Source: a virus (taxonomy: Duplodnaviria > Caudoviricetes). Taken from it: a stretch of 52,521 nt of DNA. The position numbers and the translations under genes were made by a program. Below are positions 6,343 through 41,977 of this stretch, in pieces; the stretch's first letter is position 1; each line of letters begins with the position of its first letter. Location of the stretch: the IMG/VR virus record IMGVR_UViG_3300020137_000002, positions 1 through 52,521 of that record. The stretch is one strand, 5' to 3'. A model generated the notes under the pieces. The model had not been told where the DNA came from. It did no database searches and saw only the letters and a list, made by a program, of their open reading frames with translations.

Positions 6343-7995
6343 CTAGTATACCACCTTGGAGTACCTAATCTTCCCGGCGTCGTATATCCGCTCCAAGCCG
6401 TTAAGTTCAGCCAATTGTCGCTCTGTCAACCCGTCCGCGTAGAGCAGGTGCGGGTCTTTTCGAAACCGAGCCTTGCGGTAATTGAACTTGTGTTCCCTAC
6501 GGTCCCCCGCCACATACCAGTAGTCAGGTGGGGTTTCCCCTGAGACGGTAAACCCAGCGGATTCGTACAGTCGTCCTGTAGAAACATCCCTAGCGGCAAA
6601 TGTCACCCACTCTTGCACATCTAGTTGCTTCTCTACATAGGCAAGGAGTTTAGTGAACCCGCCCCTCACTAGGGCGTTGGTGGCAAACCGTATAATCTCG
6701 TGGGGTCCCTTCTTACGGTGCTTCACCACCAGGACGGCACGGATATCCCCCTCGCTATCCCGAAGGGCGTAACTCTTACCGGCGGCGTACCCCTGAATGT
6801 GGTTCTCGTCAAGAAAAACGCGGGCCTCCTGGGATGTAACCGGGGCACACGTAAGGTCGCGGGCGTTTACCTTCATCTCGTCCGAAAGCCCAATCTTACG
6901 CAAGAGGGTCTTCTTCACCACATCCTTACGGTACTTCCAGTCATCCTCCCACACGTGGATAAGCGTCACCCCTGCTTCTTCGCAAGCCTGCGTCTTGGAG
7001 AGGTGCTTTGACCTCCCTACACGCTTCTCAGTGTGCCAGTACAGCCCGTTGAACTCAATAGCCACAGACCTCTCCGGGAGGTAGATATCCAACTCCATTG
7101 GGTGTATGAGGCTTCGGTTGCTTGTCTCCACCGTGGTGACCGTGGAGAGCCATTCTGCAAGTTCGGTTTCAGGGGTGGATACTCGGGGTGAGCATTTAGG
7201 GCAGTTGTACCCATCTGTCCTGTCGGCAAGGCGGGACTCCCATTCATGCCCAAACGCACACGTCCAACGCACCCGGTAGGAACTACTCTCGGTCACCTCA
7301 CTAGGCCCCCTATCGTTGTCAGGGTGCCACTGGGCGGCCAACTCCGGGTTGAGGGTCGCCAAGTCGTTAAACCCAGGGGACACAACGCGGCCTGAGCATA
7401 CAGCACACCCGGAGCCCTGCTTAGCCCGGTTCTGAACCTTAACAGCCCACTCATGTCCCTTAGAGCACACCCACCAGGCTCGATAATGACTCCCCGCCGT
7501 GACCTCTTGAGGTGTCTTCTCGTTGTCAGGATGCCATTCCGGCAGGAGTTCAGGGTTAGTGGTAGCAAGGTCGTTGAAGCCTGCCAGGACCCGCTTGCCG
7601 GTGCAGAACGGGCACCCCTGCCCGCCTATTGTCCGGTTGTAGACGGGGGACTCCCATTCGTGGCCGCAAGACCCAAGCCACCATGCCTTCTTGCCGGTTG
7701 CGCCCGTTACCTCCGAAGGGGTGATGGTGTTACGCGAGGGGTGCCACTGGGAGGCCACGTCTGGGTAGCGGGTGGCAAGGTCATTGAACCCAGAAAGAAC
7801 CTTCAGGGGGTTAGGGGCACAGTAAGGGCACCCTTGTGACCGGGACGCACGAGATTGCACCGTAGCGTGCCATGTATGGCCGCACGGTCCCACCCACTCC
7901 GCCTTGTACTGGGAGCCGTACGTCACATCCTCTGGGGTTCGGTCGTTACCGGGACCCCACTGTTCTGCCAGTTCAGGGTGTGTTGTTGCTAGCAC
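6343..7995 (-). CDS. Hef-like endonuclease with 4 zinc-ribbon (DUF4379-like) repeats and a C-terminal Mom/GNAT-like region
   Basis: GTG 7995 with SD GAGGAGG; four LAT..PEL...W..GH.W...R...CxxC repeats; ELDIYLPERSVAIEFNGLYWH nuclease motif; FLDENHIQG...RFA...GGFTKLL...LYESAGF tail. Confidence 0.8.
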   Translation of the reverse strand: MLATTHPELAEQWGPGNDRTPEDVTYGSQYKAEWVGPCGHTWHATVQSRASRSQGCPYCAPNPLKVLSGFNDLATRYPDVASQWHPSRNTITPSEVTGATGKKAWWLGSCGHEWESPVYNRTIGGQGCPFCTGKRVLAGFNDLATTNPELLPEWHPDNEKTPQEVTAGSHYRAWWVCSKGHEWAVKVQNRAKQGSGCAVCSGRVVSPGFNDLATLNPELAAQWHPDNDRGPSEVTESSSYRVRWTCAFGHEWESRLADRTDGYNCPKCSPRVSTPETELAEWLSTVTTVETSNRSLIHPMELDIYLPERSVAIEFNGLYWHTEKRVGRSKHLSKTQACEEAGVTLIHVWEDDWKYRKDVVKKTLLRKIGLSDEMKVNARDLTCAPVTSQEARVFLDENHIQGYAAGKSYALRDSEGDIRAVLVVKHRKKGPHEIIRFATNALVRGGFTKLLAYVEKQLDVQEWVTFAARDVSTGRLYESAGFTVSGETPPDYWYVAGDRREHKFNYRKARFRKDPHLLYADGLTERQLAELNGLERIYDAGKIRYSKVVY

Positions 7996-8025
7996 TCTGC
8001 CTCCTCTCAATCGCCCCAGTGTAGC

Positions 8026-8066
8026 ACAAAACCCCGGCCAGCCTGACTGAGTACCGGGGTTGTTGT
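8026..8066 (-). terminator. intrinsic terminator after the tail tube genes
   Basis: AACCCCGG/CCGGGGTT stem with T-run. Confidence 0.75.
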
Positions 8067-8074
8067 GGGTGAGG

Positions 8075-8869
8075 TTAGGAGACGGTAACTGCCACGGTGT
8101 CGTTGTCACCGGTTACCGGGTCGGTTACGGTGACCGTTGCAGTGTCAGTGGCCGTACCGGTCACCTTGTAGAAGCCACCGGGGTACACATCGATAACCGT
8201 TGCGTCGTCCGTGGTGAACTCAAGGTAGCAGGTAACATCGCGGCCCTGCTGGGCGGCGCGGATGCGGCCCGTAGAACCAGCGGCGAACGACGCCGGTTCG
8301 ATGGCCGTAACGGCGTGGTCACCGGCCACAACCACGTGGCTGAACTCAGTCTTGGGGATGAACGACGCGACATACCGCTTCGACTCGCCCGGCGTGAAGG
8401 GGTTGGTCTCACCCTCACGCTGAACACGGTAGACAGACACGAAGTCACCATCAGCCGCATCCTCGGACTGGTCCACATCACCGTCGATACGAGTGGCGAT
8501 ATCCACCTTTGAACCGGGGGTGTCAATCATATCGTACAGATTGGAGATGAGGTTCGAAGAGTCGTCGTACGCCTTGGGGTAGTACGGGCTGAACGAGCCA
8601 CCAAAGTTGGCAAGACCGAACGTCTCAGCGGTGGAGGCGTCAGCAAGCGAAGGCTCGTTGTTCGTCTCGGAAGCGTCCATACCGAACGACCAGTCGTTGA
8701 AGGAGATAGCCTCCGCAACGGAGAGCATACCCGACGCACCGCCGGTGTTGTTCAGTTCAACGGGAAGCGGCTCACCCACGTTGGTGACACCAAACGCGCC
8801 ACCAGTGGGGCCAATGAACACCGCGATGTTCTCGTTGGCAACCGCCTTCTCAATATCCTTGTATGCCAT
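8075..8869 (-). CDS. major tail (tube) protein paralogue 2 with C-terminal Ig-like domain
   Basis: GEPLPVELNN motif parallels SAPTDDELNA of the upstream tube gene; C-terminus FTTDDATVIDV...TATVTVT...VAVTVS is Ig (Big_2)-like. Confidence 0.75.
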   Translation of the reverse strand: MAYKDIEKAVANENIAVFIGPTGGAFGVTNVGEPLPVELNNTGGASGMLSVAEAISFNDWSFGMDASETNNEPSLADASTAETFGLANFGGSFSPYYPKAYDDSSNLISNLYDMIDTPGSKVDIATRIDGDVDQSEDAADGDFVSVYRVQREGETNPFTPGESKRYVASFIPKTEFSHVVVAGDHAVTAIEPASFAAGSTGRIRAAQQGRDVTCYLEFTTDDATVIDVYPGGFYKVTGTATDTATVTVTDPVTGDNDTVAVTVS

Positions 8870-28366: not shown

Positions 28367-28761
28367 ATGATTGCACAGGACAAGTACGGGGCTATTTACA
28401 TCGACCTTACAAACGGGTCACACGTAGTCCTTTACCCCGAGTCCCCATCGCAGGCGGTGCTGTACTCGTGGAGCGTACAGGAGCACATGGACACATATCT
28501 GCGCGATAGCCTTAAGGAGGTGAAGGGAATTACGGCAGTTCACGACCCCCTAACGACGTTGGAGGTGGATAACCTGGTGGCCTACCGCGATGAGGATGGT
28601 TTCGTTGTGGTGGTCTTCCCCCGATTGGCCCCCTTGTCCCCGAAGATTCTATCCGTTTCGCAAATGAGGTGGAGGCGTTGGATTATGTTGGGGTCGAATA
28701 TGACCCTGCGGGATACGCCGCACTCGTGTTTTTCCAAGAGGAAGGATATATCAGTGACTGA
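28367..28761 (+). pseudogene. hypothetical gene with apparent +1 frameshift in a C5 tract (28618-28622)
   Basis: Removing one C gives an acidic FPDWPLVPEDSIRFANEVEALDY...ISD* ending over the next start; as read it fuses to the next gene. Confidence 0.55.
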
Positions 28762-35229: not shown

Positions 35230-35497
35230 AGCGGGGCGTATCGCGTGGGAGCGCATGGCGGCGGCGATGGCGGAACGTGGAGCGAACTGCAAGGACACAC
35301 CGGAACCATGGACCGGGTATGTAGATGAACAGGGTGTAGAGTGGCTTCCGACCCCGAAGGAGGCACGGGACTTGTGTGCAGGTTGCCCCCTGCTTGACAA
35401 GGAGTGCTTGGAGTGGAAGAGTAAGGGGGACACCACCTACGGGGTTCTGAACGCTGAGGTTATCGACAAGTGGAAGGAGAGTGGTAGGCGTGACTAG
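35216..35497 (+). CDS. WhiB-family (Fe-S) transcription factor, divergent
   Basis: ANC...EARDLCAGCPLLDKECLEW...YGVLNA (four Cys; GVWGG turn altered). Confidence 0.75.
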   Translation: MALSRAGRIAWERMAAAMAERGANCKDTPEPWTGYVDEQGVEWLPTPKEARDLCAGCPLLDKECLEWKSKGDTTYGVLNAEVIDKWKESGRRD

Positions 35498-36593
35498 TTT
35501 GCGGGATATATTTGATGTGGACGCGTTGAGTCGTTCGATTGGAGAGGGCTGGGTTACGCATAGGACTCACCCCACGGCGACACTGGCAATCCTCAATTAC
35601 ACGGACAAGGCAACGTACACGAACCACTGGGATGACATCACCCTGAACTGCCGGGGGCTGATTTACGATGAGAACACCCTAGAGGTTGTTGCACGGGGGA
35701 TGCCGAAGTTCTTTAACTACGGACAGCCCGGCGCGCCGGAGTTCTCAATTGAGGATGAAGTGTATCTCGCGGATAAGATGGACGGGTCGCTTGCGATATT
35801 CTACCGTCACCCGAGCGGGCAATGGCGGATTGCCACCCGAGGTAGATTTGTGTCGGAGCAGGCACTTCACGCGAACACGCTCCTGGATTCCAAGGATGAG
35901 GATGAGCGCCAGGTTCTGTATGGATGGCTCGACCTTCACGCCAATGAGGGCAATACGGTAGTGGGTGAGATTATCTACCCGGAAAACCGCATCGTGGTGG
36001 ACTACGGCGACCTAGACACGATACTCACCCTTGGCACGGTAGATAACGTTACGGGTCGATTCACCCCGGTACCGAACACCCCGGTGTCCACGTTTGGGGA
36101 GGTCATGGCCCTTCCGCCTCGTGAAAACGCGGAGGGCTGGGTGCTCACCCGCGTGGATGATGGTGCTATGGCGAAGGTGAAGTACCCGGAGTATCTGGCG
36201 CTCCACCGCATCGTCACCGGGTTGTCAGCACGTACGCTATGGCAGTACCATGTGGAGGGCGTTGATGTGGACCAGTACATCGCGTCCCTGCCTGACGAGT
36301 TCCAGGAGTGGGCAAAGGGAGTCATGGACAACTTGGAGTTTGAGGTTGACTCACTGTATGACCACCTGTGCTTTGAGTATGACCGGCTTCTCACGGATGT
36401 GGAGCGCATCTACGGTACCGAGTTCGAGCGTGGGGATTTCGCACGTGAGGTGACAATCCGGTATGGTGGGGATTCACTGAAGAGGTCGGCCATGTTCCTG
36501 CTGTTTGACAGCAAGGACATCCTTCCGGTACTGTGGAAGCATGTGAAGCCAGAGGCAACGATGGCACGACCTAGTAGAGAGGGGTTGGAGTAG
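35490..36593 (+). CDS. RNA ligase (T4 Rnl1-like)
   Basis: CRGLI, PKFFN, KMDGS (motif I), ATRG, EIIYPENRIVVDY, EGWV, KVKY. Confidence 0.93.
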   Translation: MTSLRDIFDVDALSRSIGEGWVTHRTHPTATLAILNYTDKATYTNHWDDITLNCRGLIYDENTLEVVARGMPKFFNYGQPGAPEFSIEDEVYLADKMDGSLAIFYRHPSGQWRIATRGRFVSEQALHANTLLDSKDEDERQVLYGWLDLHANEGNTVVGEIIYPENRIVVDYGDLDTILTLGTVDNVTGRFTPVPNTPVSTFGEVMALPPRENAEGWVLTRVDDGAMAKVKYPEYLALHRIVTGLSARTLWQYHVEGVDVDQYIASLPDEFQEWAKGVMDNLEFEVDSLYDHLCFEYDRLLTDVERIYGTEFERGDFAREVTIRYGGDSLKRSAMFLLFDSKDILPVLWKHVKPEATMARPSREGLE

Positions 36594-37519
36594 TGGCACG
36601 TCTTATCGTCTTGCGCGGCCTTCCAGGTAGCGGGAAGAGCACGTGGGCTAAGGAGTGGGTGGAGTCCCGAGAGGGTCACGCTGTCGAGGTGAACCGGGAT
36701 AACACGCGACGGGTGCTGTTCGGGTCTGCAAACCAGGACTACTACGAGGCTCCTGATGTGAAAGACCGGGAGGCCCTGGTGACGACGATGTGTCACGCAG
36801 AGATTGAGGCGGCGCTGAAGGCAGGCTTTGACGTGGTGGTGTCGGACACGAACCTCCCGGCTAAGCGGTGCAGGGAACTAGCCCGACTGGGTGTGGGATG
36901 CGGTGCAGAGGTGGAGAGTATCACTTTTGATACACCTCTTGATGAGTGCCTGCGGCGAAATGCGGAGCGCACGGACAAAGAGCCAGTCCCCGAGGATGTC
37001 ATTCGGTCCATGCACCGTCGGTTCTTCAACCCGACCCTCGCTGGGTTTGAGGTGGAGGTTCCGGCCCCCGTGCGAAGGGCTGCTGAGTACGACCCCCAAC
37101 TGAAGGATGCCATCATTGTGGACACGGATGGTACGGTGGCAGACCACCGCCCTCACCGTGGTCCGTACGAGACGGATAAGTACGACCAGGACCAGGGCAT
37201 TGCCGACGTGGTGAGGGTCGTGTCTGCCCTCCGAAAGGAGTACGATATTATCGGCGTCTCTGGTCGTTCCGAGGAGTTCCGCAAGGTCACGGAGGACTGG
37301 TGGAGTCGGGAAGTGGGGTTCATCCCCGACGCTTTCTACATGCGCCCGGCAGGGGATAAGCGCAAGGACACAGTAATCAAGGATGAGGTGTACGAGACGC
37401 ACATCAGGGGGTGGTACAACATCATCGGTGTGATTGACGACCGGCCTAGCGTGTGCCGCATGTGGAGGGCTAAGGGGCTTACTACGTTTCAGGTGGGCGA
37501 CCCCCACATCGAGTTCTAA
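36593..37519 (+). CDS. polynucleotide 5'-kinase/3'-phosphatase (T4 PseT-like)
   Basis: GLPGSGKS P-loop, NRD, HAD motif DTDGT, SGR, DDRPSV. Confidence 0.95.
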   Translation: MARLIVLRGLPGSGKSTWAKEWVESREGHAVEVNRDNTRRVLFGSANQDYYEAPDVKDREALVTTMCHAEIEAALKAGFDVVVSDTNLPAKRCRELARLGVGCGAEVESITFDTPLDECLRRNAERTDKEPVPEDVIRSMHRRFFNPTLAGFEVEVPAPVRRAAEYDPQLKDAIIVDTDGTVADHRPHRGPYETDKYDQDQGIADVVRVVSALRKEYDIIGVSGRSEEFRKVTEDWWSREVGFIPDAFYMRPAGDKRKDTVIKDEVYETHIRGWYNIIGVIDDRPSVCRMWRAKGLTTFQVGDPHIEF

Positions 37520-38412: not shown

Positions 38413-38898
38413 ATGGGTAAAAGAGTAGACACGAGTAAGAGGTGTACCATTGATGGGTGTGACAGGGTATATCTGTGCTTGGGGGTTTGTAGATTGCACT
38501 ACAACCGCATCCGAAGCAACGGCGACCCCCACCGGGTGAAGGTTATGAAACCTGCTACGTTCTCCGACGAGGAACGCCTGCTATCCCATATAACTAAAGA
38601 GGGTGGATGGCCTGACTTCTCGGATTCCCGCGTGAGGGTGACCCCAGACGATGGCCAGTGCTGGACGGTGGATTTTACCCCGGTGGGGCTACGCAAGCAG
38701 TATACGCAGTTCTCAGTGGGGGGACGACCCCAATATACCCACCGTGTTGCGTATGAGATGTGGTCAGGCCCCATACCTAACGGGTTATACATTGACCACT
38801 TATGTCGAAATACAATATGCGTCAACCCCCGACACTTAGAGCCAGTGACGGCACGGGAGAACAGGCGTAGGATGAACCTGATTAAGGAGGAAGAATAA
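38413..38898 (+). CDS. HNH homing endonuclease, probably leaderless
   Basis: HRVAYEMWSGPIP...IDHLCRNTICVNPRHLEPVTAREN; N-terminal CxxxxC..LCxxHY; TGATACACT 6 nt before ATG. Confidence 0.93.
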   Translation: MGKRVDTSKRCTIDGCDRVYLCLGVCRLHYNRIRSNGDPHRVKVMKPATFSDEERLLSHITKEGGWPDFSDSRVRVTPDDGQCWTVDFTPVGLRKQYTQFSVGGRPQYTHRVAYEMWSGPIPNGLYIDHLCRNTICVNPRHLEPVTARENRRRMNLIKEEE

Positions 38899-41820: not shown

Positions 41821-41857
41821 CCATCCGGCCTGGACATGCCGGTAAACTGTCCACTAC

Positions 41858-41935
41858 GGGGGTGATATGGTATCGACGTTGGGTAAAGCCGCACGCGGTC
41901 CCCGGCGGACTCGGGTTCGAATCCCGACACCTCCA
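41858..41935 (+). ncRNA. miniature tmRNA: tRNA-like domain only, no tag reading frame
   Basis: Acceptor GGGGGTG/CACCTCC with G3.U70 and discriminator A; stemless D-loop ATATGGTATCGA; helix CGTTGGG/CCCGGCG; GAC linker; T-arm TCGGG-TTCGAAT-CCCGA; GGTAAACT at 41841-41848. Confidence 0.88.
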
Positions 41936-41977
41936 CTATCGGATAGCAATGAGAATCGAGAGAAAGGGGATTTGACT

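What the first reader, a model, noticed from the sequence alone, without database searches (positions are those of the whole stretch)
41841..41938. Phage-encoded mini-tmRNA: intact alanine tRNA-like domain with the whole tag/mRNA domain absent
Seen: GGGGGUG AUAUGGUAUCGA CGUUGGG UAAAG CCG CACG CGG UC CCCGGCG GAC UCGGG UUCGAAU CCCGA CACCUCC A. It has a 7-bp acceptor stem with G3.U70 and discriminator A, a stemless D-loop with GG..UCGA, a helix-2a equivalent, the GAC linker and a canonical T-arm. A 17-nt capped stem-loop sits where ~270 nt of pseudoknots and tag ORF should be. A GGTAAACT element lies 9 nt upstream, and CCA is not encoded (ACUA). Established: these are the AlaRS, EF-Tu and SmpB determinants of the tmRNA TLD, and MLD-less tmRNAs are known from some mitochondria. 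I do not know of a described TLD-only phage RNA, but could not search. Inference: it is (a) an SmpB decoy that blocks host trans-translation and ssrA tagging, or (b) a tag-free rescue RNA that accepts stalled peptides, relevant when host anticodon nucleases or mRNA toxins stall ribosomes.
Basis: partly seen in the sequence, partly recalled or inferred. Interest (0 to 1): 0.95.

Follow-up and report, generated by a model that had tools for sequence, protein, structure and literature searches.

The report
Phage tmRNA lacking its message part
This phage carries a real 81-base gene for only the tRNA-like end of the bacterial ribosome-rescue RNA (tmRNA), a kind first noted in mycobacteriophage DS6A in 2009 and here found to be widespread among phages, so it is a new member of a known kind.

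Summary
Window 41858-41938 (+) matches Rfam tmRNA end to end (70.8 bits, threshold 47, E 1.3e-25) with 306 internal model positions replaced by 13 nt. ARAGORN finds no tRNA or tmRNA.

It is not a one-off. A pattern scan of viral contigs plus filtering gave 62 unique sequences with the same about 80-nt architecture. All 62 have G3:U70 and discriminator A, and covariation is strong. Members lie unannotated in Streptomyces phages LuckySocke, GiJojo and pSt2308, often inside tRNA arrays, and in actinobacterial genomes.

The kind is already in print. Mycobacteriophage DS6A is listed as 'TLD only', and a similar molecule is cited as inhibiting tmRNA in E. coli (PMC4131195 and PMC11915505, passages read). 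DS6A's element shares the window's inner hairpin and 3' end.

Best reading: a tRNA-like RNA that host AlaRS charges and host SmpB binds, competing with host tmRNA. No SmpB is encoded by the window phage or by 18 near-complete carrier genomes. Whether it is a pure decoy or a tag-free rescuer is open. The invariant alanine identity set suggests the charged form matters.

An assembly artefact is excluded. Interest is moderate.

The parts
41858..41938 (+). TLD-only tmRNA gene. The mature RNA probably runs 41858-41935 with CCA added after transcription.
   Evidence: Rfam RF00023 at 70.8 bits over model positions 1-374 with the internal 306 positions deleted. Top hit of family model R1 at 87.5 bits, though it was in the training set.
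41858..41864 (+). Acceptor stem, 5' strand (GGGGGUG), with G3 of the G3:U70 pair.
   Evidence: G3:U70 is present in 62 of 62 unique family members. Acceptor positions 4-7 covary.
41865..41876 (+). D-loop analogue without a stem (AUAUGGUAUCGA). Its G-A, with the GA of GAC at 41908-41909, corresponds to the tandem non-canonical pairs in the Rfam consensus.
   Evidence: Alignment to the Rfam consensus.
41877..41883 (+). Helix 2a, 5' strand.
   Evidence: Predicted fold. Helix 2 is 91.2% paired with 6 of 7 pairs covarying, and it was not a selection criterion.
41884..41900 (+). 17-nt replacement for the mRNA-like domain: purine bulge UAAA plus mini-hairpin GCCG-CACG-CGGU and a C.
   Evidence: The core CCGCAYGCGG occurs in 20 of 63 family sequences, with 7 near variants, and in DS6A.
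41901..41907 (+). Helix 2a, 3' strand.
41908..41910 (+). GAC linker.
   Evidence: alignment.
41911..41927 (+). T arm (UCGGG UUCGAAU CCCGA).
   Evidence: The first two T-stem pairs covary (41 and 42 double changes among 65 sequences).
41928..41935 (+). Acceptor stem, 3' strand (CACCUCC), plus discriminator A.
   Evidence: discriminator A in 62 of 62.
41843..41848 (+). TAAACT, a possible -10-like hexamer ending 10 nt before the RNA's 5' end. Weak evidence.
   Evidence: A TANNNT hexamer ends 5-13 nt upstream in 13 of 62 members against a 7.3% background; several of the 13 are relatives. Not called by the sigma-70 scan. That TANNNT is the actinobacterial -10 consensus is recalled, not taken from a call.

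Best explanation
The element is a functional gene for a DS6A-type, TLD-only tmRNA, carried by a lytic-looking actinobacteriophage. It has the tRNA-like domain of tmRNA plus helix 2a, closed by a small hairpin, with no resume codon, tag reading frame or pseudoknots.

Inferred steps: it is cut out of a transcript like a tRNA, receives CCA from the host enzyme, is charged with alanine by host AlaRS through G3:U70 and A73, and binds host SmpB. It thereby competes with the host's full-length tmRNA for SmpB, and probably for EF-Tu and stalled ribosomes. As a result, products of stalled ribosomes in the infected cell are no longer given the ssrA degradation tag.

Shown here: the sequence, the structure, its conservation and its distribution. 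Shown by others for a similar molecule, and known to me only through citing papers: inhibition of tmRNA in E. coli. Inferred: processing, charging, SmpB binding and the benefit to the phage.
For: Identity:
- Rfam tmRNA matches at 70.8 bits with the MLD deleted.
- The same architecture scores 57 bits in LuckySocke and GiJojo and 43.2 bits in DS6A at 28478-28560.
- DS6A shares CCGCACGCGG and the CCACUA 3' end with the window.

Family under selection:
- 89 loci give 62 unique sequences, all 62 with G3:U70 and all 62 with discriminator A. Neither feature was in the search pattern.
- Five members found without the pattern (DS6A, pSt2308, L266, L267, L268) also keep both features.
- On 65 sequences, 90.0% of cells are paired against 67.9% in shuffles; there are 340 double-change cells against 116; the covariation score is 0.505 against 0.113; slid registers give at most 0.074.

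Treated like a tRNA gene:
- The element is embedded in or abuts tRNA arrays in about 9 of 30 loci examined and in LuckySocke, GiJojo and pSt2308.
- WaterT, the closest cultured relative by primase (43.7% identity), has a true tRNA in the matching slot.

Depends on host factors: no SmpB in the window or in 0 of 18 near-complete carriers.

Lack of encoded CCA is normal here: 13 of 62 members encode it, and the full-length tmRNAs of host genomes G001 and G005 do not.

Not an artefact: a second sample's 5036-nt contig bridges the region with 11 substitutions, no indel, and no change inside the RNA.

Against: - There are no expression data for this RNA. No RNA run holds the region.
- No consensus promoter or terminator lies beside it.
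- The fold energy is not better than that of shuffles (z -0.74).
- The acceptor and T-stem pairing percentages are partly circular, because I selected members for 7/7 and 5/5 pairing. TCGACG, GGAC and GGGTTCGA were fixed by the search pattern, so their invariance in the 62 says nothing.
- If titrating SmpB were the whole mechanism, chargeability would be dispensable according to the cited experiment. Yet the alanine identity set is invariant, which fits a ribosome-level role at least as well as a simple sponge.
- The cited inhibition was measured on an over-expressed construct in E. coli, not during a phage infection, and I could not read the primary paper.
Confidence: 0.55

Rival explanations
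1. Tag-free rescue RNA. The charged TLD with SmpB and EF-Tu enters ribosomes stalled on broken mRNAs and accepts the nascent chain on its alanine. Because it has no reading frame, the peptidyl-RNA is then released or hydrolysed by host factors. This frees ribosomes for phage translation without marking the products for proteolysis. It would help when host nucleases cut mRNAs or tRNAs.
For: The alanine identity set is invariant: 62 of 62 members, the window, and 5 of 5 pattern-independent members. The cited experiment found inhibition 'whether or not chargeable' (PMC4131195), so selection seems to act on the charged form. In the current model of trans-translation, the steps up to peptidyl transfer and translocation use only Ala-TLD and SmpB (PMC3929946, passages read). 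Members sit among tRNA genes that sustain phage translation. Five of 18 near-complete carriers have 22-33 tRNA matches. The window phage has an Rnl1 ligase plus PNKP, the T4-type tRNA repair pair. DS6A has an RtcB-like ligase, and the LuckySocke group has an RNA ligase beside the array. Mitochondrial and some plastid tmRNAs also lack a tag frame yet are retained together with SmpB (PMC11915505, passage read).
Against: No known step releases a ribosome from a peptidyl-TLD that has no stop codon, so a further factor must be assumed. The RNA-repair link is not general: Rnl1 occurs in 2 of 62 family records (2 of 18 near-complete) and RtcB in 1 of 18. The only experiment cited shows inhibition, not rescue.
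Confidence: 0.3
2. Decaying remnant: a non-functional leftover of a full-length phage tmRNA, or of host ssrA picked up by imprecise excision, or simply the ssrA-derived core of an attP site.
For: Phages do carry full-length tmRNAs (Kumao 407 nt, BillNye 296 nt). tmRNA genes are common integration sites (PMC10865867, passages read). The host P2 region has GAAGC on the 5' side and CGCACGGAG on the 3' side, which when joined resemble the family core. This fits an origin by internal deletion (inference).
Against: There are 62 unique variants of nearly the same length (67-82 nt before the tail) with compensatory changes in three helices. That is purifying selection on the short form. An attP core needs only the 3' part, whereas here the 5' acceptor strand and the 5' strand of helix 2a are kept and covary. 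The window has no tyrosine or serine recombinase, and only 2 of 18 near-complete carriers have a tyrosine integrase. Short forms differ in their stems from the full-length tmRNA of the genome they sit in.
Confidence: 0.04
3. A charged alanine carrier kept out of decoding: an Ala-RNA with no anticodon that feeds a process outside the ribosome or sequesters AlaRS or EF-Tu.
For: Only the invariant AlaRS identity set and the lack of any anticodon arm. That some bacteria use dedicated aminoacyl-tRNAs outside translation is recalled, not taken from a call.
Against: The elements that distinguish tmRNA from tRNA are kept: a stemless D-loop with UCGAC, GAC before the T arm, and helix 2a. This points to SmpB as the partner. 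No transferase gene was seen beside the element in the window.
Confidence: 0.03
4. An aberrant tRNA-Ala gene or tRNA pseudogene, not a tmRNA relative.
For: It lies in a slot where a relative has a tRNA, and it shares its acceptor and T arm with tRNA.
Against: ARAGORN finds no tRNA. In Rfam's clan competition the tmRNA model is the one kept, at 70.8 bits. The tRNA model gives a family member (the G033 element, which is L059 1015-1096) 26.5 bits, below its threshold of 29. There is no D stem and no anticodon arm.
Confidence: 0.02

Closest known systems
Mycobacteriophage DS6A 'TLD only' tmRNA (tmRNA Website tmID 11587; Phage__Mycobacterium.9)
   Same: Phage-borne, about 80 nt. It has a 7-bp acceptor with G3:U70 and A73, a stemless D-loop, helix 2a, the inner hairpin CCGCACGCGG, a T arm and a CCACUA 3' end. 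It is intergenic, just upstream of a replication gene (DNA pol III gp34 in DS6A, primase in the window), and unannotated in the record.
   Different: The stems differ, and the conserved linkers read GUCGACC and GGCAC in DS6A. blastn does not connect the two. DS6A scores 43.2 bits, below Rfam's threshold, against 70.8 for the window. DS6A is temperate (tyrosine integrase gp56), whereas the window phage has no integrase.
Bacterial full-length tmRNA (Rfam RF00023) with SmpB
   Same: The whole tRNA-like domain and helix 2a, including the AlaRS identity elements. It presumably uses the same host partners.
   Different: No resume codon, tag frame, stop codon or pseudoknots: 306 model positions are replaced by 13 nt. 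It cannot template a tag.
Full-length phage tmRNAs (for example mycobacteriophage Kumao, Streptomyces phage BillNye, cluster C mycobacteriophages)
   Same: Phage-encoded, often within tRNA arrays.
   Different: These are 296-407 nt, are found by ARAGORN and are annotated as tmRNA. The short form is missed by ARAGORN in 0 of 34 loci called and in the window.
Tag-less organellar tmRNAs (jakobid and oomycete mitochondria; about 65-bp forms in Mallomonadaceae plastids)
   Same: Reduced to little more than the TLD, and retained together with SmpB (PMC11915505, passage read).
   Different: These are organellar lineages reduced independently, and they serve the genome's own translation system instead of an invader's. 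I made no sequence comparison.

Membership tests
tmRNA (Rfam RF00023), tRNA-like domain | Score at or above the curated gathering threshold, with both ends of the model matched | tested here: met
   70.8 bits against 47; model positions 1-374; E 1.3e-25
tmRNA (Rfam RF00023), tRNA-like domain | 7-bp acceptor stem with G3:U70 and discriminator A (AlaRS identity) | tested here: met
   kept in 62 of 62 unique relatives
tmRNA (Rfam RF00023), tRNA-like domain | Stemless D-loop analogue (GG..UCGAC), GAC linker closing helix 2a, and a canonical T arm | tested here: met
   Alignment to the consensus; predicted fold
tmRNA (Rfam RF00023), complete molecule | mRNA-like domain: resume codon, tag reading frame with a stop, and pseudoknots | tested here: not met
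   306 model positions are replaced by 13 nt; only 17 nt lie between the helix 2a strands
tmRNA (Rfam RF00023), complete molecule | Alanylation by AlaRS, SmpB binding, EF-Tu delivery | not testable with these tools
   Needs biochemistry; only the sequence determinants are seen
DS6A-type TLD-only phage tmRNA | About 80-nt RNA gene: TLD plus helix 2a closed by a short hairpin, in a phage genome | tested here: met
   Family model R1 matches both DS6A (69.8 bits) and the window (87.5 bits), but both were in its training alignment
DS6A-type TLD-only phage tmRNA | Conservation of the short architecture with compensatory changes among relatives | tested here: met
   covariation 0.505 against 0.113 in shuffles; helix 2 has 6 of 7 pairs with double changes
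DS6A-type TLD-only phage tmRNA | Inhibits host tmRNA function in vivo | not testable with these tools
   Known only from citations of Mao et al. 2009; the primary paper is not held
Canonical tRNA (tRNA-Ala) | D stem, and an anticodon stem-loop with an anticodon | tested here: not met
   ARAGORN finds 0 genes. The tmRNA model wins the clan competition. A family member scores 26.5 bits, below 29, with the tRNA model
attP core derived from ssrA | Only the 3' part of ssrA, next to or together with an integrase | tested here: not met
   Both halves are present and covary; the window has no Phage_integrase or Resolvase match

The most novel reading that the evidence does not exclude
The short tmRNA is not a passive SmpB sponge. 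It is a widespread phage tool that must be charged with alanine and acts on the ribosome. It takes over stalled host ribosomes, caps the nascent chain with alanine without a degradation tag, and so keeps phage translation going when host defences cut mRNAs or tRNAs. The sequence-conserved inner hairpin CCGCAYGCGG would then be a contact for a partner not yet known.
Probability: 0.3. Interest if true: 0.8.

Novelty: new member of a known kind. Interest (0 to 1): 0.5.

Why it matters
Trans-translation is the main ribosome-rescue route in bacteria and a drug target, and a natural minimal competitor of tmRNA has been known from one phage only.

This work shows the form is common. There are at least 62 distinct sequences in viral contigs. 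It is present but unannotated in cultured Streptomyces phages that can be handled in harmless laboratory hosts. It also occurs in actinobacterial genomes alongside the host's own tmRNA. Standard annotation misses it (ARAGORN) or covers it with a hypothetical protein call.

The invariant alanine identity set and the conserved inner hairpin give two clear, testable handles on whether phages block rescue or hijack it.

Tried and rejected
- **Assembly collapse of an internal MLD:** rejected. A 52,424-nt contig (possibly the source of this record) and an independent 5,036-nt contig from another sample and study both carry the short form with no indel.
- **Expression evidence:** no RNA holder was listed for the region, so nothing can be said about expression.
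- **Family-wide link to RNA repair:** rejected. Rfam-independent Pfam searches found RNA_lig_T4_1 in 2 of 62 family records and 0 of 24 chance-match control records (L031 was not held), and RtcB in 1 of 18 near-complete carriers. tblastn with the window's ligase hit only 4 loci, all from the LuckySocke group.
- **Phage-encoded SmpB:** none in the window and none in 18 near-complete carriers.
- **Bacterial genome scan:** the 25-base pattern returned 120 stretches, but about 105 were 3' parts of ordinary full-length host tmRNAs. Only 5 were clear short forms (L139, L192, L214, L227, L236), plus L156 with a 6/7 acceptor; L167 is doubtful.
- **ARAGORN 'tmRNA' in L040:** an artefact that joins the short form's 3' half to unrelated upstream sequence.
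- **MAFFT alignment A1:** it put the 5' acceptor strand out of register. It was replaced by the model-based alignment A3. Alignment A2 was discarded because it contained weak tRNA hits.
- **Prophage context of the Pseudonocardia copies:** only an HNH endonuclease and two weak tail-protein hits among 10 ORFs. Suggestive only.
- **SSB identity of the upstream gene:** not supported.
- **Literature:** 'mini-tmRNA' gave 0 papers. 'TLD only' with tmRNA gave only PMC4131195. The terms 'phage tmRNA', 'viral tmRNA', 'phage-encoded tmRNA' and 'tmRNA-like' gave 6 papers, none describing a family of short forms. Mao et al. 2009 and Jacob et al. 2004 are not held. Supplementary tables of the tmRNA database papers, which may list more tag-less phage entries, could not be seen.

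Full report

Yes. Rfam's tmRNA model (RF00023) matches them from model position 1 to 374 at 70.8 bits (gathering score 47, E 1.3e-25). The central 306 model positions are replaced by 13 nt.

Every upper-case consensus position of the tRNA-like domain (TLD) is present except the terminal CCA, which reads CUA. The predicted minimum-energy fold is the expected one: a 7-bp acceptor, a 7-bp helix 2a, a 4-bp mini-hairpin and a 5-bp T stem. Its energy is ordinary for this composition (z -0.74; 38 of 200 shuffles fold as well), so thermodynamics alone would not have flagged it.

ARAGORN finds no tRNA or tmRNA anywhere in the window. GGTAAACT lies at 41841-41848, 9 nt upstream, as stated.

**2. The setting**

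The window is a whole IMG/VR virus record of 52,521 bp with direct terminal repeats. CheckV completeness is 79%.

The RNA lies in a 151-nt gap on the + strand:
- Upstream are genes for an HNH endonuclease, an Erf-like annealing protein, an exonuclease and two small proteins with no family match.
- Downstream are a primase/polymerase (probable TTG start at 41972, after GAAAGGGG), an unknown gene and DNA polymerase I.
- The structural genes are on the other strand.

I could not confirm that the upstream gene is an ssb.

The best matches to the primase are Microbacterium phages such as WaterT (43.7% identity over 95% of the protein). All 66 matching records are below 60% identity, and most are phages of actinobacteria. 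A weak WhiB-like hit fits an actinobacterial host. No tyrosine or serine recombinase is found.

In WaterT the matching position, between the ssDNA-binding genes and the primase, holds a genuine tRNA gene. This slot therefore holds small-RNA genes in the lineage.

**3. It is a member of a large family**

blastn against 50,697 phage records found two partial matches, in Streptomyces phages LuckySocke and GiJojo. In both, Rfam calls the same deleted-tmRNA architecture at 57 bits. It lies inside a tRNA array between tRNA-Val and tRNA-Ser. It is unannotated in LuckySocke and lies under a 'hypothetical protein' in GiJojo.

A pattern of 18 fixed bases can match by chance in a collection of this size, so I tested each match for a 7/7 acceptor in the register fixed by the T arm and for a 5/5 T stem.
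- Of 122 matches examined, 89 loci passed and 33 were rejected.
- The 89 loci reduce to 62 unique sequences, 67-82 nt long before the 3-nt tail. That set includes LuckySocke and DS6A but not the window.
- All 62 have G3:U70 and all 62 have discriminator A. The pattern required neither.
- Only 13 of 62 encode CCA.

**4. Covariation**

MAFFT misplaced the 5' strand. I therefore built a covariance model on the window's structure (R1) and realigned 65 sequences to it. These were the window, the 62 unique sequences and two members with 6/7 acceptors.

On that alignment:
- 90.0% of cells form standard pairs, against 67.9% in shuffles.
- 340 cells have changes on both sides, against 116 in shuffles.
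- The covariation score is 0.505, against 0.113 in shuffles.
- Sliding the 3' partners by 1-3 columns gives at most 0.074.

Caveats:
- The pairing percentages of the acceptor and T stem are partly circular, because I selected for them.
- The alignment is fitted to the model.
- The motifs fixed by the pattern cannot be counted as conserved.

Helix 2a was never selected for. It is 91.2% paired, and 6 of its 7 pairs show double changes. Five members found without the pattern (DS6A; pSt2308 by blastn; L266, L267 and L268 by model search) also keep G3:U70 and A73, while their TCGAC, GGAC or T-stem letters vary.

**5. Distribution**

- **tRNA arrays.** Among 30 loci scanned with ARAGORN, the short form was never called. 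In about 9 of them it sits in or against a tRNA array: between tRNA-Phe and tRNA-Tyr in L236 and L112, between two tRNA-Leu genes in L117, and abutting tRNA-Lys in L093.
- **tRNA content of carriers.** Among 18 carrier genomes at least 90% complete, 12 have tRNA matches over threshold and five have 22-33 matches. Three have none, like the window.
- **Lifestyle.** Two of the 18 have a tyrosine integrase.
- **Bacterial genomes.** A stricter pattern mostly recovered 3' ends of ordinary host tmRNAs. It also found five clear short forms, one of them in a Pseudonocardia isolate.
- **Co-occurrence with host tmRNA.** That Pseudonocardia genome has its own 397-nt tmRNA plus two different short forms. 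Another genome has a 387-nt tmRNA plus a short form in a 20-tRNA array.
- **Prevalence.** A model search of 150 further genomes of the same class found 2 with a short form. This is a lower bound, because only 30 candidates per genome were scored.

**6. It is already a known kind**

I could.
- Hudson, Lau and Williams 2014 (PMC4131195, passages read) list 'Mycobacterium phage DS6A (TLD only)'. [quoted passage not shown] It also reports about 65-bp tag-less forms in some plastids.
- Mao et al. 2009 itself is not held.

I located the DS6A element at 28478-28560, between gp33 and the DNA pol III gene. It scores 43.2 bits, which is below Rfam's threshold, and it is unannotated in the record. It shares the window's inner hairpin CCGCACGCGG and its CCACUA 3' end.

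I found no paper describing more than this one phage example:
- 'mini-tmRNA': 0 papers.
- 'TLD only' or 'TLD-only' with tmRNA: 1 paper.
- Four phage-tmRNA phrases: 6 papers.
- A survey that found tmRNAs in 402 of 18,146 phage genomes used ARAGORN, which does not see this form (PMC9004378, passage read).

Supplementary tables were closed and may list more.

**7. Internal anatomy and origin**

Between the strands of helix 2a the family has a purine-rich bulge (GAAAG or UAAGA types), a 3-4-bp hairpin, and one to four bases on the 3' side.

In 20 of 63 sequences the hairpin is the exact motif CCGCAYGCGG, and 7 more are near variants. These include the window, DS6A, the Streptomyces phages and the Pseudonocardia copies. 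Another 17 have CCY-NNNN-RGG hairpins, and 19 have other caps.

This sequence-level conservation, next to a freely covarying helix, is unexplained. The full-length tmRNAs of two actinobacterial genomes carry GAAGC on the 5' side and CGCACGGAG or CGCTCGGAG on the 3' side of their P2 region. Joined, these resemble the family core. This suggests, by inference only, an old internal deletion of an actinobacterial-type tmRNA, and not repeated recent deletions. The short forms differ in all their stems from the tmRNA of the genome they reside in.

**8. How it most likely works**

Shown here:
- The RNA keeps every sequence determinant of the TLD.
- The short architecture is under purifying selection.
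- It is placed like a tRNA gene.
- Neither the window phage nor any of 18 near-complete carriers encodes SmpB, so any SmpB partner must be the host's.

Cited from others: a similar RNA inhibits tmRNA in E. coli.

Inferred: the RNA is processed, CCA-tailed and alanylated, binds SmpB, and competes with host tmRNA, which removes ssrA tagging in the infected cell.

A missing encoded CCA is no obstacle, because the host tmRNA genes seen here lack it too. A -10-like TAAACT ends 10 nt before the 5' end. Such TANNNT hexamers occur at that distance in 13 of 62 members against a 7.3% background, but several of the 13 are relatives, and the sigma-70 scan finds nothing.

**9. Decoy or rescuer?**

The cited experiment says chargeability is dispensable for inhibition. 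Yet G3:U70 and A73 never vary, while the neighbouring acceptor pairs change freely. That argues the charged form is what selection sees. It implies EF-Tu binding and entry into the ribosome, either as a stronger competitor or as a tag-free acceptor of the nascent chain. In the current model, the steps up to translocation involve only Ala-TLD and SmpB (PMC3929946, passages read).

The window phage's Rnl1 ligase plus PNKP, DS6A's RtcB-like ligase and the ligase beside the LuckySocke-type arrays suggested a link to defence by RNA cutting. The link does not hold family-wide: Rnl1 occurs in 2 of 62 family records and 0 of 24 controls, and RtcB in 1 of 18.

My odds are about 0.55 for competitor of tagging and 0.3 for tag-free rescue. 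The remainder goes to remnant, non-ribosomal and tRNA readings.

**10. Artefact checks**

Two public runs hold the region as contigs. One contig of 52,424 nt is identical and may be the source of this record. The other, 5,036 nt from another sample and study, bridges all 1,001 bases laid with 11 substitutions, no indel, and no change within the RNA. With only about 0.9 substitutions expected in 81 nt, the absence of change inside the RNA is not itself significant. No RNA run was listed, so expression is untested.

**11. Verdict**

The identification as a TLD-only tmRNA is correct. The claim of novelty is not, because the kind was described in DS6A, with a functional test of a similar molecule.

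What is new here:
- The breadth of the family and its frequent place in tRNA arrays.
- The invariant alanine identity set and the conserved inner hairpin.
- Unannotated copies in cultured Streptomyces phages that make experiments easy.

I file it as a new member of a known kind, with moderate interest.

Noticed in passing
window 35481-36593 (+) and 36593-37519 (+): Adjacent genes for an Rnl1-type RNA ligase (phrog_562; Pfam RNA_lig_T4_1 at 52 bits) and a polynucleotide kinase-phosphatase (phrog_505; Pfam HAD_PNKP plus AAA_33). This is the T4-style pair that repairs tRNAs cut by host anticodon nucleases.
   Followed up: partly
L003 3989-4231 (GiJojo gp44); L002 3991-4071; L253 3001-3081; L123 28478-28560: In GiJojo a 'hypothetical protein' CDS is called over the short tmRNA. 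In LuckySocke, pSt2308 and DS6A the RNA is unannotated. These are probably annotation gaps in public records.
   Followed up: partly
L250 8610-8685 (Microbacterium phage WaterT): The closest cultured relative by primase has a true tRNA (ARAGORN: Leu-CAA; Rfam tRNA 49.5 bits) at the same place between the ssDNA-binding genes and the primase, where the window has the short tmRNA.
   Followed up: yes
L040 5905-6228 (-): ARAGORN reports a 324-nt 'tmRNA' with a tag peptide that is built on the 3' half of an 83-nt short form plus unrelated upstream sequence. This is a likely false positive of a kind that could enter phage annotations.
   Followed up: partly
G001: L264 (C30:36375-36457), L260/L268 (C99:7886-7968), L255 (C40:3492-3888): One Pseudonocardia genome holds two different short forms on separate contigs besides its own 397-nt tmRNA. 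Each differs from the host TLD in its stems.
   Followed up: partly
window 6343-8109 (-): A 588-aa HNH/homing endonuclease gene sits inside the structural gene block. A second HNH gene lies at 38413-38898.
   Followed up: no
window 41907-41939, run X2: A 579-nt contig of the second run matches only the T arm and 3' acceptor strand and continues with unlike sequence on both sides. This is probably another organism's tmRNA 3' end, not a variant of the phage.
   Followed up: no
L139 6053-6134: A one-piece short form with a perfect acceptor sits in a metagenome-assembled genome labelled Aquaspirillum. No full-length RF00023 match was found in that genome. That this bacterial group has permuted two-piece tmRNAs is recalled from the Melnitz paper's text (PMC9004378).
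   Followed up: no
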